Positions 13,200-60,720 of a DNA stretch of 64,000 nucleotides are shown here, piece by piece. Numbering within the stretch: position 1 is the stretch's first letter; each line of letters starts with the position of its first letter. This DNA comes from Cyanidioschyzon merolae. Lineage: Eukaryota. Both the position numbers and the translations under genes were made by a program. The stretch lies in the NCBI GenBank assembly GCA_000091205.1, contig AP006490.2; one strand, given 5' to 3'. The notes below the pieces were generated by a model, which was given only the letters and a program-made list of their open reading frames with translations, did not search any database and was not told the DNA's origin.

Positions 13200-13725
13200 T
13201 GCATGATTTCAAATGCTTTTTCGCGGTTTATAGCAGATGCGTTCCAAGTGCGTGCATTTTGAAGAAATAATTATCTAATGAAAAGGCATGGAGATGGAAG
13301 GCGGGGGATCCTAGAGGGCCGGTGTCATCGGGGGCCGGAAAAGTAACGAAAAGAAATCCACTTCTCGCCGGCCAACGAGCGACAAAGAGCAAGGAATGAA
13401 GAAGAAGAAAGAGAAGCGGCGCGAGAGACGGGAATGTATTGGTACACAGGGCACGAGGTCCCGGCATCCTTGTAATGGTGCGTTCCATCAGCGGCAAGAA
13501 ACGGATGGAGTTCGTGAACCAAGACTTCAACGCAGTCATCAAAATCAGACGGTGTGCAGTGCTGAAGAGAAGAGACTCGAGGAACTGACGCAATCCAATT
13601 TTGCGGGGTTACCTTTCAGAGTCGAAGTGTACAACGAGAAACTCAAGCCGATAGCAGCCGGCCGGTCAAACAAGACTGGGAGGCGTCTGCGGGTGCGTAT
13701 GTGTATATACCCTCCATGGTCGTGA
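13200..13725 (+). mobile_element. Internally deleted (MITE-like) derivative of the TnpB/Fanzor-like element: about 250 bp of the 5' region fused to about 270 bp of the 3' terminus
   Basis: 13205-13290 'gctttttcgcggtttatagcagatgcgtt...' matches the copy at 27600-27700 ('gctttttcgcggtttagagcagagacgtt...'), with weaker homology to about 13450. 13455-13720 then encodes '...MEFVNQDFNAVIKIRRCAVL...VEVYNEKLKPIAAGRSNKTGRRLRV'. This matches the element C-terminus and its 'ggccggtc...gggaggcgtctgc' 3' module. Confidence 0.6.
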
Positions 13726-22821: not shown

Positions 22822-23351
22822 AACATTCATGTGATATCGATTGCATAAATTGGATATAAAGGCTTGTTGGCGTCCGCTCCCACGCGCAGTTGGACAATCA
22901 TGACTTTAGCGTATATTTATGTATTAAACGGACACACTTCTCTGCATTCCGTTTTGCGGCTCTCCGCATGGGTGTCGATCACGGCTAGGCGAGCCCATTC
23001 CGAGCAACTAGGCGTCAATCGCTGGCGCTGCGACCCACGGACTGATAGGACGCGCTTTAGACAGAATGGCCCATTGTCTTGCTCCTAGCGCGCTGCGTGC
23101 CGCGTCTCCATACGCGTCGGACTCGTCGCGGCAACGTTGCGAAGACCCGTCGCCTCCGCGGCTGTTCGTTTTGTACACGGCAGAGCGGCGACTCGGTCCT
23201 GGACCATGCGCGTGATGCCTGTCGTCGCCCCGCAAAACGGCTGTCTCTCTAAGCGCTACACGTTTGCGCATTGTTTGCGTGTCGGCATGACGCGCAACTG
23301 GCAGAACAGCGCCGTATAGCACTCGCACAGACGCGAGCGTGGACAGAAAAG

Positions 23352-23422
23352 CAGGTACAGGCATAGGTACAGGCATAGGTACAGGCATAGGTACAGGCAT
23401 AGGTACAGGCATAGGTACAGGT
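23352..23422. repeat. 12-bp minisatellite (GTACAGGCATAG)n, about 6 units. The homologous site in the other palindrome arm (about 27105-27125) has about 2 units.
   Basis: 'gtacaggcataggtacaggcatag...' run. It generates the (PMPV)n and (YACT)n artefact ORFs. Confidence 0.9.
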
Positions 23423-23620
23423 GTGGGCTCCAGGTCGGCCCCGGAGAAGGAAGCGTGTGCAAGTACCATGGCGGCTAAAAATCGTTCGCAAAATATCACT
23501 TTATAGGCATCGAGGCTACGCATCAACGCACGGACGATCACTCACTCGCTTTCCATAGGTCGTATCCTTCCTCCATTGCATCCGGTCTTCCTTACATCAA
23601 GGCTTTCACCGCTCTCCGCT

Positions 23621-23914
23621 TTAGTTCCCCTGGAACTTTTCCTTGGTGGCATCTGCTGCGTGCTCTATTCCTTTCTTCGCAGACTGACCGGTTTCCTTCA
23701 GGTGATCCACTGCATCACCCGCCTTGTCTTGAGCTTTCTCCTGTGCGGACTTTTGCCCGGTGAGATCACGGAACTTGTCAGAGATCGTCTCCTTCGCCGA
23801 TGAAAACGCACCAGTGACAGACTCTTTCGCAGAATCCAAAGCGCCACCCGCTTTCTTCTCCGTATCTTTGAGAGCCGACTGTGCTGAGCTTGTATCTTGA
23901 GCTCCGGAAGACAT
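23621..23914 (-). CDS. Small hydrophilic stress-protein-like gene, copy A (97 aa; CsbD/LEA/Con-6-like, K/E/A/Q/G-rich)
   Basis: 'MSSGAQDTSSAQSALKDTEKKAGGALDSAKESVTGAFSSAKETISDKFRDLTGQKSAQEKAQDKAGDAVDHLKETGQSAKKGIEHAADATKEKFQGN*'. The paralog in the other arm has the same length and about 75% aa identity. The listed ORF 23621..24934 is a chance read-through from the upstream element. Confidence 0.6.
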   Translation of the reverse strand: MSSGAQDTSSAQSALKDTEKKAGGALDSAKESVTGAFSSAKETISDKFRDLTGQKSAQEKAQDKAGDAVDHLKETGQSAKKGIEHAADATKEKFQGN

Positions 23915-24040
23915 ATCACAATTTATAATGCTTTCGTAAACTCGAAAAATGCATATGCAAATGAGGTACCACGGCGCGCGCGGTGGCCGCACAGCCACAA
24001 ACACAGGAGATTTTACCGCAACAGGACCCGCACGCACCGC

Positions 24041-25320
24041 AGTTTGAAAGTCGAACGACGGCGGTGTACAGTAGCGGCGAACGATGCGCCCTAGACGACG
24101 TCTCCAACTGAGGTGCAGACGCCTCCCGGCCTTTTTGGACCGGCCACCCGCTACTGCTTCCAACTTTTTCTCAAATAATTCCACTTTGGGAGGTTGTCCA
24201 ATAACGTTCTCTCGTGGCAACTCTGGAGGTCTGCTCTCGAGCACCGCACATGTCGTTATCTTGATAGCGGCGTTAAAGTCTCGGTTCACAAACTCCATAC
24301 GTTCCGTGCCATCATTGGTTGTACTTACTAATGCAAGCAGTCCCCGAACTTTCGCCCTCCTTTCCATTTGCGCTTCCGTCAGCGGTCCGTACTTTGCTAT
24401 TCCCTCAGGGCTGCTCCGACACTTTTCTATCTCGACACTTTGAAGTGTACACCCCAGTTCATGGTGTGTATACGATGTTCGGAACTCATCTATCGATATC
24501 GTAACAAAACGTCGTGCACACTCTATGTACGTTCTCGTCGTTAGAGCTGGTGTACACCTTTTTTGGGTCTTCCAGCGCCCTGATCCGTACGCTACTACCA
24601 GCCTTTGGCTCTCGTCCTCCTTCAGGGCGTTCAACTCATTGAAAAAGTTCGCGAGCACGCGCTGCCTCCCACCGTATAGACTCATTCGCAGACGAGCCCA
24701 CCGGGGCTTTGTATACTCCTCCCGTAGCGCCTCCCGATGAGGAACACGAACTTCCATGACTTTCCGAGAAGCTTGAAAGTGTGCTCCGCGGCCCGTCACC
24801 TCGCTCAAAGCTTCCAGGTGATCCTTCATTCCTGCATCCCATGCAGGAATTTTCTTCCTCGCATTCATGACTCCCGATTCTCGATAGTATCTTGCTCTCG
24901 GGAACCTCAAAAGACGCATGTCTTTCTGACGCAAGGAACCGTCAGTACTATCTTCCGCACGCTACGCTGCGCGATGGTTATGATACTCGTATTCTCAGGG
25001 TCCGCGCCAACGACAAAGCCGTTATCTTGCACTTTCTGCACCGCAGGATCCGCCTCCTTCTCATCTTCATGCTGCACCACGTCAACGACAAAGTCGTTAT
25101 CCTGCACTTTCTGCGTCGCGGTACCCGCCTCCTTCTCATCTTCTTGCTGCGCCACGTCAACGACAAAGTAGTTATCCTGCACTTCCTGTGTGGCAGGATC
25201 CGCCTCTTTGTTTTCTGCATCCTTCGTCACGGGCGGAGCCGAGGGCGGAACTGGCCGATCTGTCTTCAACCGCCGATAGTGTACACACAAGGCTACTCCA
25301 TCGGTTTCGATCATCCCAGT
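24041..25320 (-). mobile_element. TnpB/Fanzor-like element, copy 1. The 3' about 1.3 kb is present; the 5' end is truncated at the palindrome centre. It carries a frameshift shared with copy 3 and has lost its stop codon (TGA to TGT).
   Basis: ORFs 24907..25326 (- '...VGADPENTSIITIA') and 23621..24934 (- 'MRQKDMRLLRF...MEFVNRDFNAAIKITTCAVLE...GRSKKAGRRLHLSWRRRLGRIVRRY'). About 98% identical to the 3' half of the 27.4-30.1 kb copy. Confidence 0.8.
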
Positions 25321-25372
25321 GAACAACTTTTGTTTGCTGACTTTGAGCCGTTCGAAACTGAAGATATTCTTC

Positions 25373-26572
25373 GTTGGGATGATCGAAACCGATGGAGCAG
25401 CCTTGTGTGTACACTATCGGCGGTTTCAGGCGGATCATCCAGCTCCGTCTTCGACTTCGCCGGGACGGAGCATGAAGCGAAGAAAGAGGCGGATCGTGCC
25501 ACGCAGAAAGTGCAGGATAAAGAATTTCCCATTGACGCTACGAAGCATGAAGATGAGATGGAGGCGGATACCGCGACGCAGGAGATGCAGGATAACGACT
25601 TTGTCGTTGGCGCGGACCCTTGGAACACGAATATCATTGGCATGGCTGTACCCAAGCGTGCGGAAGATGGTATCAACGACAGCCCATTTCAGAGAGACAT
25701 GCGTCTGTTGAGATTCTCGAGAGCAAGATACTACCTAGAATTGGGAATCATGAATGCAAGGAAGGAAATTGAGGCATGGAATGCGGAAGTGAAAGAGCAT
25801 CAGGAAGCTTTGAGCGAGGTGACAAGCCGAGGAGCGGGCTTTCAAGCTTTTCTGAAATTCATGGAAGTTCGCATTGCGCACTGGGATGCATTGTGGGAGG
25901 AGTATACAAAGCCCCGGTGGGCTCGTTTGCAAATGAATCTATACGTTGGGAAGCAGCGGGCCTTCGCGAGTTTTTTCAATCAGTTGAGTGCCCTGAAGGA
26001 GGATGAAAATCAGAGGCTCGTAGTAGCGTATAGAGCAGGGCGCTGGGCGCCCAAGAAAGGCACTACGCCAGCTCCAACGACGGGGGCGTACAAGGAGTGC
26101 GCACGGCGTTTCGTCGCGATACCGATAGATGAGTTCCGTTCGTCCTATACACTCCATGAACTGGGGTGTACACTTCAGAGAGTGGAGATGGAAAAGTGCC
26201 AACGGAGCCCTGAGGAAATAGCAAAGTACGGACCTCTGACGGAAGAGCAAATGGAAAGGAGGGCGAAACTTCGGGGGCTACTTGCATTAGTAAGTACAAC
26301 CAGTGATGGCAAGGAACGTATGGAGTTTTTAAACCGAGACTTTAACGTCGCTATCAATTTAAGGAGATGTGCGGTGCTGGAGACGAGACCTCCAGAGCTG
26401 ACAAGAGAGAACTTTGTTGGACAACCGCCCAAAGTAGAACTATATGAGAAAATATGGAATCAGTAGTAGGTGGCCGGTCCAAAAAGGCTGGGAGGCGTCT
26501 GCACGTCAGTGGGAGATGTTTCGTCTAGGGCGCGTGCTTCGCCACTATTGTACACCGTTGGCGTCGTTCGAG
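25373..26572 (+). mobile_element. TnpB/Fanzor-like element, copy 2. The 3' about 1.2 kb is present; this is an older, more diverged subfamily member and is in-frame through the RuvC-I region.
   Basis: ORF 24892..26466 from '[16 protein letters not shown]' onward reads '...DNDFVVGADPWNTNIIGMA...ERMEFLNRDFNVAINLRRCAVLETRPPELTRENFVGQPPKVELYEK'. About 80% aa identity to other copies. The 3' module 'ggtggccggtccaaaaaggctgggaggcgtctgcacgtcag...gtacaccgttggcgtcgttcga' is present. Confidence 0.75.
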
Positions 26573-26605
26573 TGCGAAAGGTGTTCCCTTAGCGTCGCAG
26601 TGACA

Positions 26606-26899
26606 ATGTCTTCTGGGTCGCAGGATACCTCTTCTGGTCAATCAGTTCTCAAAGATGCCGAGGCGAAGGTAGGCAGTGCATGGGAATCCACGAAGGAGTC
26701 AGTTTCTGAAGCGTTCACTTCGGCCAAGGAGACTATCTCTGACAAGTATCGTGATCTCACCGGCCAAAAGTCCGCGCAGGAGAAAGCCCAAGACAAGGCG
26801 AGCGAGGCGGTGGATCACCTAAAGGAAACCGGTCAGTCCGCGAAGGAGAGTTTGCAGCACGCTGCAGATGCAGCCTCGGAAAAGTTAAAGGACGGCTAA
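26606..26899 (+). CDS. Small hydrophilic stress-protein-like gene, copy B (97 aa)
   Basis: 'MSSGSQDTSSGQSVLKDAEAKVGSAWESTKESVSEAFTSAKETISDKYRDLTGQKSAQEKAQDKASEAVDHLKETGQSAKESLQHAADAASEKLKDG*'. Same length as copy A, intact ORF, and it begins about 35 bp after the copy-2 element terminus. Confidence 0.6.
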   Translation: MSSGSQDTSSGQSVLKDAEAKVGSAWESTKESVSEAFTSAKETISDKYRDLTGQKSAQEKAQDKASEAVDHLKETGQSAKESLQHAADAASEKLKDG

Positions 26900-27703
26900 C
26901 GGAGAGAGCGTAGAAAGACTTGAGTGAAGGATGCACGGAAGTAAAACAGGAAGGATACGACCTATGGACAGCGAGTGAGTGATCGTCCGTGCGTTGATGC
27001 GTAGCCTCGATGCCTATAAAGTGATGTTTTGCGAACGATTTTTAGCCGCCATGGTACTTGCACACGCGTCCCGCTCCGGGGCCGACCCGCAGCCCACACC
27101 TGTACCTATGCCTGTACCTGCTTTCCTGTCCACGCCCGCGTCTGTGTGAGTGCTATACGGCGCTGTTCTGCCAGTTGCGCGTCATGCCGACACCCAAACA
27201 ATGCGCAAACGTATAGCGCTTATAGAGAGATAGTTGTTCCGCGGGGCGAGCGCCCGCAATCGCAGTCGAGGGCACAATCGACTCGATCGCTGCCGCACGG
27301 GGCGCGACGCATCGCACGCTGTGGTGCAGCGCAGCGCGTACCGGCCTCTGGAAGCAAGTTGTGCGCAGCAGCGATCTGAGGCCTTTATCCATCGGTGCAG
27401 CGTCTCGCGCGGTGCACGCATCGCGCTCGGTGAGCGTACCCGGGAGATCAGGCAGATATGAGACACGACGCGCATGTCGCCGCTGAAGGGAAACGCGATC
27501 CTGACCATTCGTTGACGTGTTGTTCTAACGTAAAACTTGTATTTGCATTGGAATCGTAACAGAATATATTGTTTCATCTCAGTCGTGTTTCAACCTTCAA
27601 GTAAAAATACTCGAGCGCTTTTTCGCGGTTTAGAGCAGAGACGTTAATAGTGCGTTCTAAATCAAAAAAAAAAAACTAAAAAAGGAAAGTTCTGGACAGC
27701 GAA

Positions 27704-30068
27704 GTGGAGGACCCTGGAGGGTCAGTATCGCTGGCAGGCGAGAAAAAAGGAGCAAAAGAGCCAAACATAGAAGAACGAGACAAGACGAAGAAGCAGACGG
27801 GGGAGGTCCTACGTCAATGGCTGCAAGAAAGACGACAGTACGACGAGATGGAGGTGAAAACCTGTCTTCTCGGCTATAGCAAGGATTCGTAGAAGAAAAA
27901 ATTGCGAGAGTCCATCAGAAACTGTGACGAGTCGGACTCCATGAGTTTTCGTAAGACTTCTTTAGGAATGATGCATCTAGCGAGGGAGATGTATCGCGAC
28001 GTGACGCACATGGAAACAGTCGATGTTCCAGAAAAATTTTGCAACAGGAACTTTATTCTTCACCTGATGCTTGGTACAGGGGAAACATCGAGGAGAAATG
28101 AGCGGGTTCACGCCCTCCACGAAAACTTCGCGGAATTCCGCTTCGAGGGTACTCGGTACAGAGGTGACTCGAATATTTACATATACGGGGCGATGAAGTA
28201 CCTCACGAATCTGAAGAACCATTTGACAGTGAACCTTGAACGTTTCATGAGACGCTCGGTGTTTGCACTCTACCGGGGCATCTCTCGCACAGGAATACGG
28301 GCGATTACCAATGGCATCACCAACGAGCACCAGAATGAAGATGAAGTCGAATTTGTCGACAAGAAGGCGTCAAACGAGCGCACGAATGAAGCCTCTGTAA
28401 TCCGTGCGGTTATACAAGAGCGCCGTGCAATCTTGGGGTTGGCGGATCCAATAGACAAGATACCAGAGTTGAAAAAAAATATAAGGAAAGACACTATCGC
28501 CTCATCCTGCGATATTTCGTGTTTTTGCACCGAGAGCCCGAACGCAGTGCGCAGATGAAGCCGAGTGAGGAAAAAATATGAAGAGTGGGAGAGACGGAAA
28601 GCTTTCCTAATGGGGAAGCGCTTCAACGTCGTTCCAATGTGCAGCATCAAGTCACATTTTGTGACTGTCGACCCAACGTACGTTACAGCAAATTGAAGGA
28701 GATCTGTCCGGAGTTCAATGTAAGGAAGACAGAGTTCGCCGGTGAAAACCGGGAGACGTACTGGAAGAACATCTTCAATTTCAAACGGCTCAAAGTCAGC
28801 AAACAAAAGTTGTTCACTGGGATGATCGAAACCGATGGAGTAGCCTTGTGTGTACACTATCGGCGGTTGAAGACAGATCGGCCAGTTCCGCCCTCGGCTC
28901 CGCCCGTGACGAAGGATGCAGAAAACAAAGAGGCGGATCCTGCCACACAGGAAGTGCAGGATAACGACCTTGTCTTGACGTGGAGCAGCATGAAGATGAG
29001 AAGGAGGCGGATACCGCGACGCAGAAAGTGCAGGATAACGACTTTGTCGTTGACGTGGTGCAGCATGAAGATGAGAAGGAGGCGGATCCTGCGGTGCAGA
29101 AAGTGCAAGATAACGGCTTTGTTGCTGGCGCGGACCCCGGGAATACGAATATCATCACCATCGCAGCACCGAGGCGTGCGGAAGATGGTACTGACGGTTC
29201 CTTGCGTCAGAAAGACATGGGTCTTTTGAGGTTCCGGAGAGCAAGATACTATCGAGAATCGGGAGTCATGAATGCGAGGAAGAAAATTCCTGCATGGGAT
29301 GCAGGAATGAAGGATCACCTGGAAGCTTTGAGCGAGGTGACGGGCCGCGGAGCACACTTTCAAGCTTCTCGGAAAGTCATGGAAGTTCGTGTTCCTCATC
29401 GGGAGGCGCTACGGGAGGAGTATACAAAGCCCCGGTGGGCTCGTCTGCGAATGAGTCTATACGGTGGGAGGCAGCGCGTGCTCGCGAACTTTTTCAATGA
29501 GTTGAACGCCCTGAAGGAGGACGAGAGCCAAAGGCTGGTAGTAGCGTACGGATCAGGGCGCTGGAAGACCCAAAAAAGGTGTACACCAGCTCTAACGACG
29601 AGAACGTACATAGAGTGTGCACGACGTTTTGTTACGATATCGATAGATGAGTTCCGAACATCGTATACACACCATGAACTGGGGTGTACACTTCAAAGTG
29701 TCGAGATAGAAAAGTGCCAGAGCAGCCCTGAGGGAATAGCAAAGTACGGACCGCTGACGGAAGCGCAAATGGAAAGGAGGGCGAAAGTTCGGGGACTGCT
29801 TGCATTAGTAAGTACAACCAATGATGGCACGGAACGTATGGAGTTTGTGAACCGAGACTTTAACGCCGCTATCAAGATAACGACATGTGCGGTGCTCGAG
29901 AGCAGACCTCCAGAGTTGCCACGAGAGAACGTTATTGGACAACCTCCCAAAGTGGAGTTATTTGAGAAAAAGTTGGAGGCAGTAGCGGGTGGCCGGTCCA
30001 AAAAGGCCGGGAGGCGTCTGCACCTCAGTTGGAGACGTCGTCTAGGGCGCATCGTTCGCCGCTACTGA
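27704..30068 (+). pseudogene. TnpB/Fanzor-like RuvC-family protein gene, disrupted (in-frame stop SKDS*; about 1-bp deletions near 28667 and 28960; a possible 100-nt GT..AG intron at 28530-28629)
   Basis: Reconstructed order: N-terminal '...MYRDVTHMETVDVPEKF...' is followed by a WED-like '...[36 protein letters not shown]'. An acidic 25-aa repeat of about three units precedes 'GADPGNT' (RuvC-I D). Next come '...LVVAYGSGRW' (RuvC-II position, Glu apparently replaced), a degenerate Zn-ribbon 'TSYTHHELGC...C', then 'NRDFNAAIKI' (RuvC-III D). Compare the TnpB consensus RDxNAAxNIxRRG. Confidence 0.7.
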
Positions 30069-30075
30069 ACCACTG
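29930..30075 (+). ncRNA. Candidate omegaRNA-like conserved 3'-terminal module, overlapping the ORF's last about 45 codons and ending at the element terminus
   Basis: A single string is conserved in all copies and in both solo fragments: 'ggtggccggtccaaaaaggccgggaggcgtctgcacctcagttggagacgtcgtctagggcgcatcgttcgccgctactg(tacaccgccgtcgttcgacttt)'. Short hairpins are visible: GGCC...GGCC, GAGG...CCTC, CGTCT...AGACG. By analogy, the TnpB/Fanzor guide RNA scaffold is encoded at the 3' end of the ORF and the right end. Confidence 0.3.
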
Positions 30076-30132
30076 GCGGCAGCGTTTTTCTTTTGAAAAG
30101 CGTTTGCTGCTCGGGGTGCTAGCGTTCCTGAA

Positions 30133-32073
30133 ATGGAACCGAAACCTACTGTGTTCAACTCTTTAACTCGTGAAAAGGAGCAGATTACCCTTTCATCGGA
30201 TCGCAGCTTTCTGAGCTGGTATATCTGCGGACCAACGGTCTACGATGCCGCACACGTGGGGCACGCGCGGAACTACGTCTCTTTCGACATCGTTCGACGC
30301 TTGCTCGTTGATTATTTCGGCATACCGGTACTTTATCAAATGAACATAACGGATGTTGACGATAAAATCATTCAAAAGTCGTTTGATTCTGGGGAGAGCT
30401 TCACAAACATAGCGCGTCGGTTCGAGGCGGACTTTTTCGACGACCTGGAAGCGCTGCACTGCCTGCCACCGGACGTTGTTACCCGAGTGACCGAGTACAT
30501 TCCTGAGATAACGGCATATGTTCGCAAACTTATGGAACGTGGATATGCCTACGAGGCGGCCTCTGGTTCCGTCTACTTTGACGTGGAAGCGTTTGAGCGA
30601 AGTGGACGACACCGTTTTGGGAAGCTCAGGCCTGCCGCTGCCGCAGCAGCAACGAGCGTTGAGACCCGACCGCATGCGGGTGCAAACGGGGTCGATCCTC
30701 CCAGCCTTGAGCAGCTCTCTGTCCAGGAAGAAAAACGGAACCCTCGAGACGCTGCTCTGTGGAAAGCCTCCAAGTCAGCAATGGAGCCAGGTTGGGAAAG
30801 TAACGGTCTAGCGCGGGGGCGTCCCGGCTGGCACATTGAATGTGCGGTCATGGCGTCGCTGGTCAGCTGTGCGGGTACGACACACTTGGATATTCACACC
30901 GGTGGTATCGATCTCGAGTTTCCGCATCATGACAATGAGATCGCGGAAGCGGAAGCGTACTTCGAGACCGACCTGTGGTCACGCTACTTTCTCCATTCGG
31001 GGCATTTGAATATTGAGGGCCTCAAAATGTCCAAATCGCTGAAAAATTTCATTACCATTCGTGAAGTTCTCCGTCGATGGAATTGGCGCCAACTACGTGT
31101 TCTGTTTCTCATGCACCATTACCAGACGACCATGAACTATTCTGAAGAGAGCATGACACATGCGGCAGCAGTCGAAAGGACCATCCAGGAATTTATGCGT
31201 TCTACAGAGGCAGAGCTGCGGGCGCACTTGCCCGAGGAACGCCATCGGAAGCCCACAAAAGTCGATCTAGAGCTCTTATACCAGGTACTGCCTGCAACTG
31301 AGGCCACTGTTCGTGCCCACCTGAGCGACAACTTCAACACACAGGACGCGTTGCAGGACTTGCTTACACTGATTCGCACGGTGAATCTCCATCGGCATGA
31401 AACACCGGGGGGCGTTGGATACGCCACTCTACATCACATACGCAGCTCCGTCGGTCGTATACTATCTTGTTTCGGTCTTGACTACGACGTCAAGGATGAT
31501 GTCGCGTCCCAGGGCGGAGCTGCACTGGCCTCCGTCGAACCGTGGATTCAGGGGGCCGTGCGCCTCCGCGACCAGATTCGCGAAGTTGTACTTTCGGCGG
31601 ATGCAAATACTGACGCGAACGCCCTCAAAGAAAGTATTCTTGCGGTGTGCGACGAGTTTCGGGATGCGGTATTACCGCCTCTGGGGGTACGGCTCGAGGA
31701 TCGGACGTATCCGAAACCAGCAATCTGGAAATACGATGATCCTGCGGCTATTCAGGCGGACATCGAGCAGCGGCGGCAAGCCGAAGCTGCGCGAGCAGCG
31801 GAGAAAGAGGCCCGTCGTAGAGAAGCGGAACAGCGGCTCTTGAAAGAGCTCGAACAAGGTCGCACGCATCCTAGTCAAATGTTCCTGGACCCGAGTCTCT
31901 ATTCCCAATGGCGAGAGGACGGCATTCCGACGCATGACGCCGAGGGTCGCGAACTCGAAAAATCTCGCGTGAAGCGACTCTTGAAAGAGCAACAGCGTCA
32001 AGAGCGTCTACATCGCAAATTTCTGGAAGCACAGGCTTCGGGCCTCTTGTCCAAACTTGGCATGGAGCCTTGA
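30133..32073 (+). CDS. Cysteinyl-tRNA synthetase (class I aaRS), 646 aa
   Basis: HIGH motif 'AAHVGHARNY' and KMSKS motif 'KMSKSLKNF' are present and the protein is collinear with CysRS. The Lys/Arg/Glu-rich C-terminal extension is typical of eukaryotes. Confidence 0.9.
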   Translation: MEPKPTVFNSLTREKEQITLSSDRSFLSWYICGPTVYDAAHVGHARNYVSFDIVRRLLVDYFGIPVLYQMNITDVDDKIIQKSFDSGESFTNIARRFEADFFDDLEALHCLPPDVVTRVTEYIPEITAYVRKLMERGYAYEAASGSVYFDVEAFERSGRHRFGKLRPAAAAAATSVETRPHAGANGVDPPSLEQLSVQEEKRNPRDAALWKASKSAMEPGWESNGLARGRPGWHIECAVMASLVSCAGTTHLDIHTGGIDLEFPHHDNEIAEAEAYFETDLWSRYFLHSGHLNIEGLKMSKSLKNFITIREVLRRWNWRQLRVLFLMHHYQTTMNYSEESMTHAAAVERTIQEFMRSTEAELRAHLPEERHRKPTKVDLELLYQVLPATEATVRAHLSDNFNTQDALQDLLTLIRTVNLHRHETPGGVGYATLHHIRSSVGRILSCFGLDYDVKDDVASQGGAALASVEPWIQGAVRLRDQIREVVLSADANTDANALKESILAVCDEFRDAVLPPLGVRLEDRTYPKPAIWKYDDPAAIQADIEQRRQAEAARAAEKEARRREAEQRLLKELEQGRTHPSQMFLDPSLYSQWREDGIPTHDAEGRELEKSRVKRLLKEQQRQERLHRKFLEAQASGLLSKLGMEP

Positions 32074-43399: not shown

Positions 43400-43732
43400 T
43401 CGACGGACAACGTACCAGGTTTTTTCGTCGTTCCAAACAGGTTCTGGATCTCGATGTGGTAACGCAATATCTTTGCCAGAATAAATACAGGACGCGTGTC
43501 CACGCAGCGCCTCCAGCTAAACGAAAGCGAGTTCCGGGCCCAGGTGCGTACGCCGCAGACGGACCGGAATCCTTCTACGAGGACTCGAAACTCGCAAGTG
43601 ACTGTTTGATGGAGCTTCTCGGTGATCCGCGGCGGAGTGAGCTCTTCATCGCCTTGACTGCAGCAGCGGAAAGCGGATGGGACTTTGTCGCGCTGGCTGC
43701 GCGATCGGCGAAGCCTGTGCTCACACACCAAC
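43400..43732 (+). pseudogene. Trehalase gene fragment. 43562-43732 is about 95% identical to 49329-49501 of the intact trehalase gene. Upstream there is weaker protein-level similarity ('RVHAAPPAK' vs 'RYHAPAAEG').
   Basis: 'ccggaatccttctacgaggactcgaaact.gcaagtgactgtt.gatgga.cttctcggtgatccgcggcggagtgagctcttcatcgccttgactgcagcagcggaaagcggatgggactt' is shared. The fragment's 'ESGWDFVALAAR' is a degenerate version of the trehalase 'ESGWDFSSRW' motif. It ends about 12 bp before the right end of the 43.7-kb element. Confidence 0.75.
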
Positions 43733-46046
43733 AACGCCGCTCTAAAGTCGAACGACGTCGGGCGTGTACAGTAGTGGCAGCAACCGCGCCCTCGACAAGA
43801 CGTCTCCAACTGACGCGCAGACGCCTCCCCGTCTTATTGGACCGGCCACCGATTACTGCTTCCAACTTTTTCTCATATAGTTCCACTTTGAGAGGTTGCC
43901 GCACAAAATTCTCTCTTGTCAGCGCTGGAGGTCTTCTTTCCAGCACCGCACATCTCCTGATATTGATAGTGGCATTAAAGTCTCGATTCACAAACTCCAT
44001 ACGCCTCTTGCCATCATTGGTTGTACTTACTAGTGCAAGTGGCCCTCACACTTTTGCCCTCCTTTCCATTTGCTCCTCCGTCAGCGGTCTATACTTCTTT
44101 ACATCTTCAGGGCTCCTCTGGCACTTTTCCATCTCGACCCTCTGAAGTGTACAACCCAGCTCGTGGTGTGTATAAGATGTTCGGAACTCATCTATCGGTA
44201 TTGTAACGAAACGCCGTGCGCACTCCTTGTACACCCTCGTCGTTGGAGCTGGCGTAGCTCCTTTCTTGGGCGCTCAGCGCCCTGCTCCGTACGCTACTAC
44301 CAGCCTTTGGCTCTCGTCCTCCTTCAGGGCGTTCAACTCATTGAAAAAGTTCGCGAGCACGCGCTGCCTCCCACCGTATAGACTCATTCGCAGACGAGCC
44401 CGCCGGGGCTTTGTATACTCCTCCCGTAGCGCCTCCCGATGAGGAACACGAACTTCCATGACTTTCCGAGAAGCTTGAAAGTGTGCTCCGCGGCCCGTCA
44501 CCTCGCTCAAAGCTTCCAGGTGATCCTTCATTCCTGCATCCCATGCAGGAATTTTCTTCCTCGCATTCATGACTCCCGATTCTCGATAGTATCTTGCTCT
44601 CGGGAACCTCAAAAGACGCATGTCTTTCTGACGCAAGGAACCGTCAGTACTATCTTCCGCACGCTACGCTGCGCGATGGTTATGATACTCGTATTCTCAG
44701 GGTCCGCGCCAACGACAAAGTCGTTACCCTGCACTTTCTGCGTCGCAGGACCCGCCTCCTTCTCATCTTCCTGCTTCACCGCGTCAACGACAAGATCGTT
44801 ATCCTCCACCTCCTGCGTCGCAGGATCCGCCGCTTTGTTTTCTGCATCCTTCGTCACGGGCGAAGCCGAGAGCGGGACTGAACGATCTTTCTTCAACCGC
44901 CGATAGTGTACACACAAGGCTACTCCATCGGTTTCGATCAACCCAGTGAATACCTTTTGTTTGCTCATTTTGAGCCGTTTGAAATTGAAGATGTTCTTCC
45001 AGTACGTCTCCAGGTTTTCACCGATGAACTCTTCCCTGTTAACATCGAACTCGGGAATGATCTCCCTCATGATGCCATAAAGGATTCTGGAGTCGATAGT
45101 CACAAAATGTGACTTGAAGTTGCACAACGGAACGACACTGAAGCGCTTACCCACTAGGGCAGCCTTCCGTCTCTCCCACTCTTCATTTTTCTCTCACTCA
45201 GCTTCATCTCTGCCTTGCGTTTGAGTTCTCGGTCCAAAATCACGAAATACCGCAGGACGAGGCGATAGTATCTTTCCTTATCTTTTTCAACTCTGATATC
45301 TTTTCTGTTGGATTAACCAACCCCAGTACCGCACGATGCTCTTGTATAACCGCGCGGATGACGGAATCCTCATTCGTGCTCTTGTTTGACGCCTTCTTGT
45401 CGACGACTTCGACCTCATCTTCATGCTTACGATCTTTCGTGATGCCATTGATAATCGCCCATTTTCCATTGCGAGATAGGCTCTGGTAGAGTGCAACCAC
45501 GGCGCGTATCATGAAACGTTCGAGGTTCGCTGTCAAATGGTTTTTCAGATTCGTGAGGTACTTCATCGCCCCATATGTGTAAATATCCCCGTCACCCTTG
45601 TATCGAGTACCATTGAAGCTGTAAAAGGGATGTTTTTCGTGGAGGGCATGCATTCGCTCGTTTTCCCTCCGCGCTTCCCCTGTAACAAGCATCAGCTGAC
45701 GAATAAAGGTCATGTCGAAAAACTCGTCCGGAATTTCGACTGTTTCCATATGCGTCACGTCGCGATACATCTACCTCGCCAAATGCATCAGTCCTGACGA
45801 CGCCTTGACAATACTCTCGGAGTCTGACGCAACACGTTTTTCGATAGCGTCTCGCAACGTTTCCCTGTTGGGATCCTTGATATGTTTAAGAAGACAGCCT
45901 TTAACCACCATCTCGTCGTACAGTTGTCTTTTTTGCCGGCTTCGACGTAGGACCTCACCTTTTGCTTCTTTTTCTCTTCCTTTTCTTCTGGAATCGGCAC
46001 TGTTTTTTGTTTTTTTTTCTGGCAGCCGGCGACACTGGGCCTCCAA
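43575..46046 (-). pseudogene. TnpB/Fanzor-like protein gene of copy 3, disrupted
   Basis: Same domain order as the 27.7-30.1 kb gene. The N-terminal half is about 75% aa identical to that copy and the C-terminal half about 98%. Confidence 0.7.
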
Positions 46047-46345
46047 GATCGTGGACTTGCTTTTTCATATCTTTCCTTTTTTTGTTTTTTTTGAAAAGGA
46101 ACGCTCTTTGGACGCTTGTGGTATATGCTGCGAAAAAACACTTGACTAGACTTGTTTGAAGTTTTAAACAAAAATGAGCTGAAAGACTGTACTTTGCTAC
46201 GAACTGAACGGAAATCCAACTTTTTACAGCTGAACAACACGCTTCTGATCGAGATCACGTTTCCCTTCAACGGCGAGATACATGTCGTGTCTCATGTCTG
46301 CCTGATCTCCCAGGTGCGCTCACCGATCGATGAAGGTCACGTGTC
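43745..46345 (-). mobile_element. TnpB/Fanzor-like element, copy 3. Near full length, minus strand. It carries a nonsense mutation (E to stop before MYRDVTH), the frameshift shared with copy 1, and others.
   Basis: Minus-strand ORF pieces 45771..46046, 45240..45770, 44609..45154, 44274..44636, 44046..44234 (other frame) and 43575..44000. The last reads 'MEFVNRDFNATINIRRCAVLERRPPALTRENFVRQPLKVELYEKKLEAVIGGRSNKTGRRLRVSWRR'. The 3' terminus is '...ctactgtacacgcccgacgtcgttcgacttt'. Confidence 0.8.
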
Positions 46346-48235
46346 CGACACCCCGCCTTGGCACTTGCGTGTTCGCATCGCGCAGCAGCAAAAATCAGGT
46401 GTCCTAAATCGAAAACTCACGTGGAGTAGTCTCGTGCTATAGGCTATGTCGCTGGTGCTGACGCTACTGCCCATCGCATTACCGCCCTGACAGACATGGA
46501 GCTGTTGGGGCCTGGCACGATACCTCTCGACGCTTCTATCAAATGCGTAGCGTTCTCTGCGGCTTACGCTTGTGTGGATAAGATACGCATCACTCTACTC
46601 AATAGGAATTTTGTTAGTTTTATTGATCGTAAACAAACAAGGTACGGTAGGATTCCTGAACACGGATACAAGTTTATTTCCTATGCTTGTAATGCATGCT
46701 GCACGGACGCTGGAATAAGGAACTGACATGAATTTTGCTTCTTTCCGGCGTCATGGGCTGGTACTGATGACCGTTCAAGTCATTTTCCATGCTATCGTCA
46801 TTGCCCAAGTTATGGTGCCTGCTACTGTCTCGGACCCGGTGATCTTGACAGAGGCATAGCACACAGGTAGCGTCCATATCTGCCACGACGTTTGAGCCTT
46901 GCATCTCGCCTGGCACGATCGAGGAACCCGATAAAAGCACATACTGTATTCTTATCTACTCTATAAGATTAGTTTCAAGAGCCTAACCTGTATGTAGTTG
47001 TGCAAGCACCAAACCGTAAACTTATCTGCACCCCCTACGCCCCCCGCCATTCCTTAAGCAAGCGGATGTTCGTTAGCCACCTGCTGATTTTTCCCTTCCA
47101 GTAGTAAAACTGCTCAAGAGACGGATTTTTTCTCTATCCCTTACCGTTCAATGGAAAGAAAACGTTTCACGACCATGTAGGGTAAATTAATATCCAATCA
47201 CAGACGTCTCCTAGCCTTTTCCACCGGCCCCCTGCTATCGGTTGCAGCTTCTCTTTGTACAATTCGACCCTGAGAGGATGTCCCAGAAAGGTGGACCGCG
47301 TCAGCTCCGCCGGTCGCGCCTCCATCACCATTCGTCTTCTGATATTGATGAGGTTTTGTCGAAAACGCTAGTGATAGAGCTGAGGTCAAGAAACGATCCA
47401 TCTTGACTGGCGCTATCAAACGATCGGTACCAGAAGCTGGAGGCTGCAGCCGGCACCAGGTGCTCTGGTGACGGCATGCTGGCCGTGAATAGTGCGCGAC
47501 GAAGCCGCACAGCATGCTACGGTTTCCTAGTACGTAGGTAAAACAAGCGCGTACCCTAAACGTTCATATTCAGGGCGATGACTAGTCGCCGCCACGGTAT
47601 CCTGGGAAAAATATGCGAGTGCACTTTGGTTGCTCGACTATCGAGCACCATCACGAGTATGGGTGCACTTCACTACACGGTTTCCAACGATCATTGAATC
47701 CACCATCATCCAAAAGTGACGAAAAGTCACAAGCGCACCGGCCTCGTACCTCCAAGTCAGGACTTGCCCATCAGCACGCACACAAATTTCGTGACCCGCT
47801 GCGCATTCACCAAACGAAAGGAAGCACGCGTTTCTTCATCCAGGGATAGAGGGTTCCAAATTCCTTCAGAGACTGCCGATGCTTCGCCCGAACCCAGACC
47901 ATCAGCTGCGGTATGCCCACGAGCATAAACCGGATGCCTGCGATTATCTGCGTCATCAATGTAAATCCTGCCCACACCAGTACCTCAAATGTGTGTCGTT
48001 CGGACACGACACAAGCTCGAAAACCAAGCCGTATGGGGCCTGTCGCAAGCGCCAGTGGCACACCAGGTTGCCAAGCTCACAAATGCCAAAGCACACCACG
48101 CCTATCCAAAAAAAGGCGGCAGCGTCAGCAGCGGAAAGCACCAGCTCTATTGATCAAGAAGCGCATCGATGCGCTTCTCGATCGACGAAACGCGAGCTCC
48201 GCGAGACGCATTCGCCATCAGTTGACGTATAGAAC

Positions 48236-60489: not shown

Positions 60490-60720
60490 ATAGGGCATCG
60501 AGTTGGCCTCGAAATGCGATCGTGAAAAGTCGTGAGACGTGTCGGCAAACGCTGTGGCGCCAGCGTAGCACGCGTGGTGACGAGAGCGAACCTAGTGGGG
60601 CAACCGCTCCTGATCGAGGTGTGCCAGGAGAAGCTGAAACCGATAGCATGCGGTCGGTCGAAAAACAAAAGGCTGGGAGGCGTCTCCATGTCGGTGCAGA
60701 GACGTGCACTCTATGGGTGT
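60490..60720 (+). mobile_element. Solo 3'-terminal fragment of the TnpB/Fanzor-like element, more diverged, lying 115-345 bp downstream of the CIA30-domain gene stop
   Basis: It encodes '...RANLVGQPLLIEVCQEKLKPIACGRSKNKRLGGVSMSVQRR', matching the element's '...RENVIGQPPKVELFEKKLEAVAGGRSKKAGRRLHLSWRRR'. DNA 'ggtcggtcgaaaaacaaaaggctgggaggcgtctcc' matches the 3' module 'ggccggtccaaaaaggccgggaggcgtctgc'. Confidence 0.6.

What the first reader, a model, noticed from the sequence alone, without database searches (positions are those of the whole stretch)
29930..30075. Conserved 3'-terminal noncoding/coding-overlap module, a candidate omegaRNA scaffold, also present as solo copies
The last roughly 150 bp are the most conserved part of every copy. 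The string 'ggtggccggtccaaaaaggccgggaggcgtctgcacctcagttggagacgtcgtctagggcgcatcgttcgccgctactgtacaccgccgtcgttcgacttt' recurs in the solo fragments at 13.6 kb and 60.6 kb. Those fragments carry only about 200-270 bp of the element. Short stems are visible (GGCC/GGCC, GAGG/CCTC, CGTCT/AGACG). In TnpB and Fanzor systems the guide RNA scaffold is encoded at exactly this position, the ORF 3' end and right end, with the guide taken from flanking DNA. Conservation beyond coding need would fit an RNA function.
Basis: inference. Interest (0 to 1): 0.75.

Follow-up and report, generated by a model that had tools for sequence, protein, structure and literature searches.

The report
Candidate guide-RNA end of Fanzor transposon
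The flagged stretch is the right-hand end of decayed copies of a known Fanzor1 transposon family of the red alga Cyanidioschyzon merolae; it folds like the guide-RNA scaffold such elements carry, but no test available here shows that it works as an RNA.

Summary
The window comes from Cyanidioschyzon merolae 10D: its CysRS protein is identical to BAM79775.1. The repeat is the Fanzor1 family that matches CMe-1A of Bao and Jurka (2013) in host, size, age and lack of terminal inverted repeats. A protein profile hits solved Fanzor1 structures (PpFz1 E=3e-17).

The quoted string is real. It is exact only in copy B, and its first 80 nt are exact in copy A.

The last ~150 bp are not the most conserved part. 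The "solo copies" are coding relics, at least two of them from a related subfamily with a different tail.

The ancestral ORF stops at a TAG (30043-30045 in A).

The consensus module folds far better than shuffles on the sense strand only (z=-6.8). It has a closing helix, a 7-bp stem, a GGCG:CGCC stem and a terminal hairpin. Homology among copies ends ~2 nt after that hairpin.

Covariation is not above controls, synonymous sites show no extra constraint, and all four window copies are pseudogenes.

Verdict: a plausible omegaRNA scaffold (about 0.55) and an expected feature of a known family. Interest is modest.

The parts
27382..30106 (+). Copy A of the Fanzor1 element. It is the Fanzor body without the ~620-bp 5' module. 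The right end could lie as far as ~30118.
   Evidence: Homology to 11 other loci starts exactly at 27382. The nhmmer module ends at 30106. Similarity specific to type-2 copies continues to ~30118.
28980..30068 (+). C-terminal Fanzor1 ORF fragment of copy A, with RuvC motifs [16 protein letters not shown] and NRDFNAA. The upstream parts lie in two other frames, so A is a pseudogene. The tail after WRR is a frameshift artefact.
   Evidence: A 2-nt deletion relative to the family consensus is seen.
29979..30111 (+). Candidate omegaRNA scaffold in copy A: a domain closed by helix P1, followed by the terminal hairpin.
   Evidence: RNA fold of 29955-30112 gives -64.8 kcal/mol, z=-3.0, against -47.1, z=-2.0 for the antisense strand. 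The consensus has z=-6.8.
29979..29988 (+). P1 5' arm (GCAGTAGCGG, inside codons A-V-A/V-G).
   Evidence: Pairs with 30059-30068. Present in 19-23 of 36 single-sequence MFE folds. 90-92% of cells are paired. The U-A to C-G double change is specific to copies A and B.
30013..30039 (+). P2: 7-bp stem GGCGTCT / AGACGTC with a 13-nt loop, inside the last codons.
   Evidence: 86% of cells paired.
30043..30045 (+). Ancestral stop codon TAG of the family. It is out of frame in A and B because of the 2-nt deletion.
   Evidence: The consensus ORF of 784 aa ends ...GRRLHVSWRRFV*.
30046..30060 (+). P3: GGCG...CGCC hairpin, noncoding.
   Evidence: 94% of cells are paired. Column identity is 0.955 in the stems and 0.63 in the loop. 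The inner pair is C-G in 16 copies and G-C in 10.
30057..30073 (+). Conserved noncoding block CGCCRCTACTGTACAC, which includes the P1 3' arm at 30059-30068.
   Evidence: Column identity is 0.90-0.95, like nonsynonymous sites and above the third-codon-position value of 0.83-0.85.
30075..30111 (+). Terminal hairpin of copy A, type 2 (core AGCGTTTTTC-TTTT-GAAAAGCGTT at 30081-30104).
   Evidence: -20.9 kcal/mol. The same subtype occurs in 7 other independent loci.
24035..24181 (-). 3' module of copy B, with a type-1 terminal hairpin (core 24060-24038).
26437..26586 (+). 3' module of copy C, the inverted-duplicate partner of B. Its hairpin is degenerate.
43731..43883 (-). 3' module of copy D, with a type-1 hairpin (core 43757-43735).
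43733..46992 (-). Copy D, a complete ~3.26-kb element made of the 5' module (46992-~46372) plus the Fanzor body. Its ORF is fragmented.
13491..13690 (+). It holds RuvC-III to ...GRRL coding sequence of a related subfamily, then a different tail. A left-end piece lies at 13215-13253.
47201..47350 (-).
60578..60715 (+). It is a diverged coding 3' fragment only.

Best explanation
The module is the right end of the Cyanidioschyzon merolae Fanzor1 transposon family that fits the published description of CMe-1A. It most likely encodes, or encoded in active master copies, the omegaRNA scaffold of that Fanzor.

Inferred mechanism: a sense-strand transcript covers the last ~20 codons plus the ~60-75-nt noncoding tail. 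It folds into a domain closed by a long-range helix (GCAGUAGUGG : CCACUACUGU). That domain contains a 7-bp stem (GGCGUCU/AGACGUC) and a GGCG:CGCC stem. A stable terminal hairpin follows. The RNA would continue into flanking DNA, which would supply the guide for the RuvC nuclease.

Shown here: host identity, Fanzor1 homology, element anatomy, the ancestral stop codon, the strand-specific fold, and the end of homology just after the last hairpin.

Inferred only: transcription, protein binding and guide use.

The four copies in this window are pseudogenes. At these loci the module is a relic that could act only with protein supplied from an intact copy elsewhere.
For: - Host: the CysRS protein is identical to C. 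merolae 10D BAM79775.1.
- Family: the features match CMe-1A as published, namely ~150 copies about 80% identical to the consensus, ~3 kb, no TIRs (PMC3627910). Measured here: identity to consensus 0.80-0.84 and copy D of 3.26 kb.
- Protein: a profile of 45 relatives hits PpFz1 9cf0 (E=2.9e-17), SpuFz1 8gkh (2e-10) and GtFz1 9cer (7e-5). The DPG, DEFRT and NRD..NAA motifs are aligned.
- Position: known Fz1 omegaRNAs are 75-150 nt, lie at or overlap the ORF's 3' end, and extend 14-15 nt past the conserved region (PMC10432273; PMC11423790).
- Fold: consensus -76.7 kcal/mol against -52.1 +/- 3.6 for shuffles, z=-6.8.
- Fold along the element: the 3'-terminal 160-nt window has z=-4.3 on the sense strand and -0.9 on the antisense strand. 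It is the strongest window of the Fanzor body.
- Hairpin strand asymmetry: -27.6 (sense) against -13.8 (antisense) for type 1, and -20.5 against -10.0 for type 2. Type 1 has 5 G.U pairs.
- Two hairpin subtypes both keep a hairpin. Only 1.8% of random 8-substitution variants are as stable as type 2.
- Noncoding stems are more conserved (0.92-0.955) than loops (0.63) and than third codon positions (0.83-0.85).
- Column identity falls to background ~2 nt after the hairpin core.
Against: - Covariation is not above controls. The four-helix model gives 81.1% of cells paired against 80.8% in shuffles, reached by 119 of 500 shuffles.
- The MFE 'rod' model is only marginal (15-23 of 500 shuffles). The hairpin extension shows nothing.
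- Derived G.U (34) and A.C (28) states in stems are balanced.
- Synonymous sites in the overlapping codons are not extra-conserved, and stem third positions equal non-stem third positions (0.847 against 0.864).
- The whole noncoding tail averages ~0.81 identity, the same as neutral-like sites.
- Orthologous copies in different strains diverge in the tail at the flank rate: 0.82% against 0.84%.
- There is no Rfam match even at E<=1.
- The fold is also an outlier with DNA parameters (z=-4.9), so an ssDNA role is not excluded.
- No intact ORF lies in the window.
- No expression data were available.
Confidence: 0.55

Rival explanations
1. The conserved block and terminal hairpin are DNA-level transposition signals. 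They would be a right end recognised by an unknown, trans-acting mobilisation machinery, possibly as a single-stranded hairpin as in IS200/IS605 or Helitron ends. No RNA role, or only a secondary one. This does not exclude an omegaRNA: in IS200/IS605 the same right end serves both purposes.
For: - The fold is also significant with DNA parameters (z=-4.9).
- The hairpin sits at the very end of the element.
- Copy B/C (sharing one truncation point in an inverted duplication) and an RE-only fragment in L024 are 5'-truncated with intact 3' ends; copy A lacks the 5' module.
- L020 has a tandem duplication of the last ~48 nt.
- RE fragments lie 25-34 nt upstream of another copy's left end in 2 of 3 junctions.
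- Bao and Jurka found no TIRs and could not determine TSDs or the element class.
Against: - No transposase is associated with the family.
- No Helitron CTRR end or TC start was seen.
- The 5 G.U pairs make the hairpin strand-specific and far weaker as G.T or A.C pairs in DNA.
- The closing helix P1 joins coding and noncoding sequence ~80 nt apart, which is more typical of an RNA domain.
Confidence: 0.2
2. The module is the 3' UTR of the Fanzor mRNA. Its structures would serve 3'-end formation or mRNA stability, for example a UGUA-containing signal followed by a hairpin, rather than guiding.
For: - It lies directly after the ancestral stop codon on the sense strand.
- The conserved CTGTACAC block contains UGUA.
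- The structure is specific to the sense strand.
Against: - P1 and P2 reach ~65 nt into the coding sequence.
- The structure ends exactly at the element boundary, with no further UTR.
- No evidence on C. merolae poly(A) signals was examined here.
Confidence: 0.1
3. There is no present function. The similarity is common descent of decaying pseudogene copies, and the good fold is a compositional or historical accident.
For: - All window copies are pseudogenes.
- Tail divergence between orthologous copies equals the flank rate.
- There is no covariation and G.U/A.C states are balanced.
- The tail's mean identity equals that of third codon positions.
Against: - z=-6.8 against dinucleotide shuffles, with strong strand asymmetry, while the rest of the Fanzor body shows nothing comparable.
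- Stems are clearly more conserved than loops.
- The hairpin is retained in two sequence subtypes.
Confidence: 0.15

Closest known systems
Fanzor1 omegaRNAs (SpuFz1 ~90 nt, GtFz1 ~150 nt, PpFz1 ~75 nt; Saito et al. 2023, Xu et al. 2024)
   Same: - Same protein family by profile homology.
- Lies at or overlaps the 3' end of the ORF on the sense strand, as the GtFz1 omegaRNA overlaps 17 codons.
- Several stem-loops, including one of 7 bp.
- Ends at the transposon right end, with flank sequence following.
- A predicted scaffold of ~130 nt is within the known range.
   Different: - No RNA-seq, pull-down or cleavage evidence.
- No sequence or Rfam similarity to any described RNA.
- No inverted repeats at the ends, unlike Spu-1 elements.
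- No 'ghost' scaffold-only loci in this window.
- All window copies are pseudogenes.
TnpB omegaRNA of IS200/IS605 (e.g. ISDra2)
   Same: The scaffold is derived from the tnpB 3' end plus the right end, including the subterminal hairpin. The guide is the DNA just beyond the right end.
   Different: - Eukaryotic host.
- No TnpA partner.
- The left-end flank motif (TAM) could not be defined (n=3).
- No pseudoknot or triplex was tested.
CMe-1A / TE-N2_CMe transposon families of C. merolae (Bao and Jurka 2013, Repbase)
   Same: Host, Fanzor1 ORF, ~3-kb length, ~80% identity to the consensus, no TIRs, and a separable ~620-635-bp 5' module.
   Different: The Repbase consensus was not available for direct alignment. 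The paper does not describe the 3' structures, the two hairpin subtypes or an RNA.
Helitron 3' subterminal hairpin
   Same: A stable hairpin lies within a few nt of the 3' end. Some copies are 5'-truncated, and there are tandem end duplications.
   Different: No CTRR 3' end, no TC 5' end, no RepHel gene. The hairpin depends on G.U pairs.

Membership tests
Fanzor1 (eukaryotic TnpB-like RNA-guided nuclease) | Sequence or profile homology to characterised Fanzor1 proteins | tested here: met
   The A8 profile hits PpFz1 9cf0 (E=2.9e-17), SpuFz1 8gkh (2e-10) and GtFz1 9cer (7.4e-5). Single sequences give no PDB or Pfam hit.
Fanzor1 (eukaryotic TnpB-like RNA-guided nuclease) | RuvC catalytic motifs (D ... 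E ... D) | tested here: met
   [16 protein letters not shown] and NRDFNAA are present in copy A's ORF 28980-30068. They align to the PpFz1/SpuFz1 motifs. The zinc-finger cysteines are incomplete.
Fanzor1 (eukaryotic TnpB-like RNA-guided nuclease) | Intact full-length ORF at this locus | tested here: not met
   Copy A is split over three frames. B and C are 5'-truncated. D is fragmented. The consensus ORF is 784 aa. The longest ORF among 80 related loci is 778 aa and ends early.
omegaRNA (OMEGA guide RNA) | Encoded at or overlapping the nuclease ORF's 3' end, on the same strand, reaching the transposon right end | tested here: met
   The ancestral stop is at 30043-30045. The structured domain spans 29979-30111. 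Homology ends ~2 nt after the hairpin core.
omegaRNA (OMEGA guide RNA) | Conserved secondary structure supported by covariation | tested here: inconclusive
   Thermodynamic support is strong (z=-6.8, strand-specific). Covariation is not above shuffles or only marginal. G.U and A.C states are balanced. Power is low because the copies are decayed.
omegaRNA (OMEGA guide RNA) | A stable transcript that extends a fixed length into the flank (the guide) | not testable with these tools
   No expression data were accessible.
omegaRNA (OMEGA guide RNA) | Binds the cognate nuclease and directs TAM-dependent DNA cleavage | not testable with these tools
   This needs biochemistry. Only 3 independent left-end junctions were recovered, too few to define a TAM.
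CMe-1A transposon family (Repbase; Bao and Jurka 2013) | C. merolae host, ~3 kb, ~80% identity to the consensus, no TIRs, separable 5' ~635-bp module | tested here: met
   Host. Identity to consensus 0.80-0.84. Copy D of 3.26 kb with a ~620-bp 5' module. Description in PMC3627910. Direct alignment to the Repbase consensus was not possible.
Any Rfam 15 RNA family | Covariance-model match | tested here: not met
   No match at gathering score in the whole window. No match at E<=1 in 29850-30160.
Helitron-type 3' end | Hairpin ~10-12 nt before a CTRR 3' terminus, a 5' TC start, and a RepHel gene in the family | tested here: not met
   A hairpin is present, but homology ends ~2 nt after it at GGCGTT. 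There is no CTRR. The 5' end reads TACRGG. RepHel was not searched for.

The most novel reading that the evidence does not exclude
CMe-1A could be a 'Fanzor-only' mobile element that spreads without any transposase. Its omegaRNA-Fanzor complex, together with the right-end hairpin, would drive copying into cut sites. This would account for several odd features: long-lived coding capacity, 5'-truncated copies with intact 3' ends, tandem right-end duplications, and right-end fragments lying 25-34 nt upstream of another copy's left end. It would also give a Fanzor1 with a ~130-nt guide scaffold from a thermoacidophile that grows at ~42 C and pH 2.
Probability: 0.1. Interest if true: 0.7.

Novelty: new member of a known kind. 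Interest (0 to 1): 0.3.

Why it matters
If confirmed, this would be the first omegaRNA assigned to a red-algal Fanzor1. It would add a guide scaffold from a genetically tractable thermoacidophile to the small set of characterised eukaryotic RNA-guided nucleases. It could also help explain how a family with no transposase, unclassified since 2013, persisted and spread.

As it stands, the finding is the expected architecture of a known family, seen in pseudogenised copies and without functional evidence.

Tried and rejected
- RNAalifold on 36 independent copies gave only a weak consensus (-4 kcal/mol). I therefore tested explicit structures.
- Covariation was tested on three structure models: four helices plus hairpin, the MFE rod, and the hairpin extension. 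None clearly beat the shuffles.
- The G.U against A.C asymmetry of derived states gave 34:28, no signal.
- Subfamily consensus comparison failed because the copies form a star-like tree with no usable subfamilies.
- An empty-site search through contigs encoding the identical CysRS found that all 8 contigs carry the insertion or break inside it.
- More divergent copies (P0107, P0049) and a distant relative (P0135) gave no alignable 3' tails.
- Single-sequence Pfam and PDB searches gave nothing. Only a broad profile reached the Fanzor1 structures.
- Rejected: copy A is 3'-truncated at CTACTG. It carries the type-2 hairpin subtype.
- Rejected: the 9-bp extension of the terminal hairpin is part of the element. 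Its columns are at background identity and show no covariation.
- Rejected: a Helitron2-like asymmetric inverted repeat. Only a 5-7-nt match (TACAG) was seen by inspection of the, 47 sequences, too weak to use.
- The TCGAYG motif 20-35 nt beyond the hairpin occurs in only ~6 of ~47 ends and was chosen after the fact.
Full report
**What is there**

The window is eukaryotic. The gene just downstream of the finding (30133-32073) encodes a cysteinyl-tRNA synthetase identical in sequence to BAM79775.1/XP_005536061.1 of Cyanidioschyzon merolae 10D.

BLAST of the region against the window finds four copies of one repeat:
- A: 27382-~30106, plus strand.
- B: 25372-~24035, minus strand, 98% identical to A, 5'-truncated.
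- C: 25367-~26586, plus strand, about 82% identical.
- D: 46992-~43733, minus strand.

B and C are the two arms of a ~4-kb palindrome that also duplicates the flanking gene.

The quoted 102-nt string is exact only in B (24148-24047). Its first 80 nt are exact in A (29988-30067). C and D carry 88-90% versions.

**The protein and the family**

The ORF carries RuvC-like motifs: [16 protein letters not shown] and NRDFNAA. Single sequences hit nothing in Pfam or the PDB.

An exhaustive HMMER search found 1374 relatives. A profile of 45 of them hits the solved Fanzor1 proteins, with the catalytic motifs aligned:
- Parasitella parasitica Fanzor1, 9cf0, E=2.9e-17.
- Spizellomyces punctatus Fanzor1, 8gkh, E=2e-10.
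- Guillardia theta Fanzor1, 9cer, E=7e-5.

Bao and Jurka (2013, PMC3627910) described a C. merolae Fanzor1 family, CMe-1A. It has ~150 copies about 80% identical to the consensus, is ~3 kb long, has no TIRs, and its TSDs and class are undetermined. Its 5' 635 bp equal a separate element, TE-N2_CMe.

What I measured fits this description. Identity to the consensus is 0.80-0.84. Copy D is 3.26 kb and has a separable ~620-bp 5' module that copy A lacks. I could not align to the Repbase consensus itself.

A full-text search found no paper on an omegaRNA for this family.

**More copies**

One metagenome scan returned 80 related loci from hot-spring metagenomes. These represent 45 independent insertion sites, many sampled in two strains.

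A majority consensus of 35 copies restores a 784-aa ORF, apart from one internal stop that I attribute to consensus error. It ends ...GGRSKKTGRRLHVSWRRFV* at a TAG. In copy A that TAG is at 30043-30045. A and B lack 2 nt just before it, so their longer tail (RRRLGRIVRRY) is a frameshift artefact.

The module is therefore the last ~20-25 codons plus ~60-75 nt of noncoding right end.

Copy A is not truncated at CTACTG as first appeared. It carries a second subtype of the terminal hairpin (core AGCGTTTTTC-TTTT-GAAAAGCGTT, 30081-30104). Seven other independent loci share this subtype.

Claim 1: the last ~150 bp are the most conserved part. This does not hold.
- Within the window, 29930-30075 is 0.96, 0.82 and 0.80 identical to B, C and D. 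At least one preceding 146-nt block scores higher in each comparison.
- Across 35 copies, the RuvC-coding half scores 0.91-0.93, 0.92-0.945 and 0.83-0.84 at codon positions 1, 2 and 3.
- The last 25 codons score 0.90, 0.91 and 0.845. There is no excess synonymous conservation.
- The noncoding tail averages ~0.81.

Claim 2: solo copies exist. This does not hold either.
- A profile search finds three fragments: 13491-13690, 47350-47201 (minus strand) and 60578-60715.
- All three are relics of the coding 3' part.
- S13 and S47 then continue into a different tail that they share with each other and with further relics in other loci. These belong to a second subfamily.
- S13 also keeps a piece of a left end, so it is an internally deleted element.
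- True right-end-only fragments do exist elsewhere (L024 231-327, L058 1-65), but not in this window.

**Structure**

- The type-1 consensus (160 nt) folds at -76.7 kcal/mol against -52.1 +/- 3.6 for dinucleotide shuffles, z=-6.8.
- Copy A gives -64.8 (z=-3.0) on the sense strand and -47.1 (z=-2.0) on the antisense strand.
- Sliding a 160-nt window along the ~2.9-kb consensus, the 3'-terminal window has z=-4.3 on the sense strand and -0.9 on the antisense strand. Within the Fanzor body nothing else on the sense strand is as strong. Only the first ~220 nt of the alignment are comparable.

Recurrent elements in single-sequence folds:
- P1: GCAGUAGUGG (in codons A-V-V-G) pairs with CCACUACUGU in the noncoding tail.
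- P2: a 7-bp stem, GGCGUCU/AGACGUC.
- P3: GGCG/CGCC.
- P4: a terminal hairpin.

The type-1 hairpin scores -27.6 kcal/mol on the sense strand and -13.8 on the antisense strand, because it holds 5 G.U pairs. Type 2 scores -20.5 against -10.0. Only 1.8% of random 8-substitution variants of the type-1 core fold as well as type 2.

In the noncoding tail, stems are well conserved and the P3 loop and linkers are not:

| Element | Column identity |
|---|---|
| P3 stems | 0.955 |
| P1 3' arm | 0.917 |
| P4 core | 0.85 over all copies |
| P3 loop | 0.63 |

Column identity falls to background about 2 nt after the hairpin core, at GGCGTT. That is the scaffold-then-variable-flank layout expected of an omegaRNA.

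**Tests that failed to support an RNA**

- On 36 independent copies, the four-helix model has 81.1% of cells paired against 35-55% for slid partners. Shuffles give 80.8%, and 119 of 500 reach the observed value. The covariation score equals the shuffle mean.
- The MFE rod model is marginal, with 15-23 of 500 shuffles reaching the observed values.
- The proposed 9-bp extension of the hairpin shows nothing.
- Derived G.U (34) and A.C (28) states in stems are balanced.
- In 21 orthologous-locus pairs the tail diverges at 0.82%, the same as the 3' flank at 0.84%.
- Third codon positions inside stems are no more conserved than those outside (0.847 against 0.864).
- Rfam gives no match.
- The fold is also an outlier with DNA parameters (z=-4.9).

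The copies form a star-like tree. Most substitutions are probably post-insertion decay, so the covariation tests have little power.

**Interpretation**

Known Fanzor1 omegaRNAs are 75-150 nt long. They sit between or across the stop codon and the right end, contain a 7-bp first stem-loop followed by variable stem-loops, and extend 14-15 nt into variable flank (PMC10432273; PMC11423790).

The C. merolae module matches that layout in position, strand, size (~130 nt from 29979 to ~30106-30111) and boundary behaviour. I therefore rank 'omegaRNA scaffold of CMe-1A, preserved as a relic in pseudogene copies' first, at about 0.55.

The rivals are:
- a DNA-level transposon end signal, which does not exclude the RNA reading (0.2);
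- an mRNA 3' UTR or 3'-end element (0.1);
- a functionless relic (0.15).

None of the four window copies encodes an intact Fanzor.

**Novelty**

The transposon family and the general rule that the omegaRNA lies at the Fanzor 3' end are both known. A specific scaffold model for the red-algal family appears not to have been published in the literature I could search. This is a new member of a known kind, of modest interest until RNA evidence exists.

Noticed in passing
window 23244-27228: A ~4-kb palindrome centred near 25346. Copies B and C, both cut at the same internal point, and the flanking LEA-like genes (ORFs 23621-24934 minus strand and 26444-26899 plus strand) form inverted arms 77-95% identical. 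This looks like an old inverted segmental duplication.
   Followed up: partly
window 28930-29122 (also in copies B, C, D): A 75-nt tandem repeat (2.6 copies in A) inside the Fanzor ORF. It encodes an acidic 25-aa unit (..[24 protein letters not shown]..). The copy number differs among family members.
   Followed up: partly
window 29213-29512 versus 44300-44600: Copies A/B and D are ~99% identical over ~300 bp but ~82% identical on either side. This suggests recent gene conversion between dispersed copies.
   Followed up: no
window 13215-13700, 47201-47350, 60578-60715; L040 ~5685, L072 ~572, L028 ~4712: Relics of a second, older Fanzor subfamily. Its 3' tail differs (..TACCCTCCATGGTCGTGAAACGTT..) and has its own hairpin, which appears as GGGTA/TACCC in some copies and GGCTG/CAGCC in another.
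   Followed up: partly
window 46372-46992 (copy D); L024 231-359; L058 1-88: A ~620-bp 5' module, like TE-N2_CMe, starting TACRGGTTAGGC. In 2 of 3 independent junctions it is preceded by a 5'-truncated right-end fragment of another copy. That fragment's hairpin ends 25 or 34 nt upstream, and both spacers end in TCGATG.
   Followed up: partly
L020 ~690-800: A tandem duplication of the last ~48 nt of the right end (CCGCCACTACTG...GGCGTTT, twice).
   Followed up: no
window ~27356-27580 (start of copy A) and the equivalent in other copies: The first ~220 nt of the family consensus also fold much better than shuffles on the sense strand (z about -4.9 against -2.3 antisense).
   Followed up: no
window 30106-30135: Copy A ends only ~15-25 nt upstream of the CysRS start codon (30133). 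All 8 contigs from other samples that encode the identical CysRS carry the same insertion or break inside it. No empty site was seen in the 8 contigs, which were selected for an identical CysRS protein.
   Followed up: yes
L089 435-3600: A distant Fanzor1 relative (P0135, 699 aa, brine metagenome) lies directly downstream of a DDE_3 (Tc1/mariner-type) transposase gene. The precomputed Pfam family on these proteins is PF26935 (DUF8286).
   Followed up: no
family consensus, codons 1-500 versus 500-784: Codon-position periodicity of conservation is strong in the RuvC half (0.92/0.94/0.83) and absent in the N-terminal half (~0.82/0.83/0.80). Selection during the family's divergence acted mainly on the nuclease core.
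   Followed up: no
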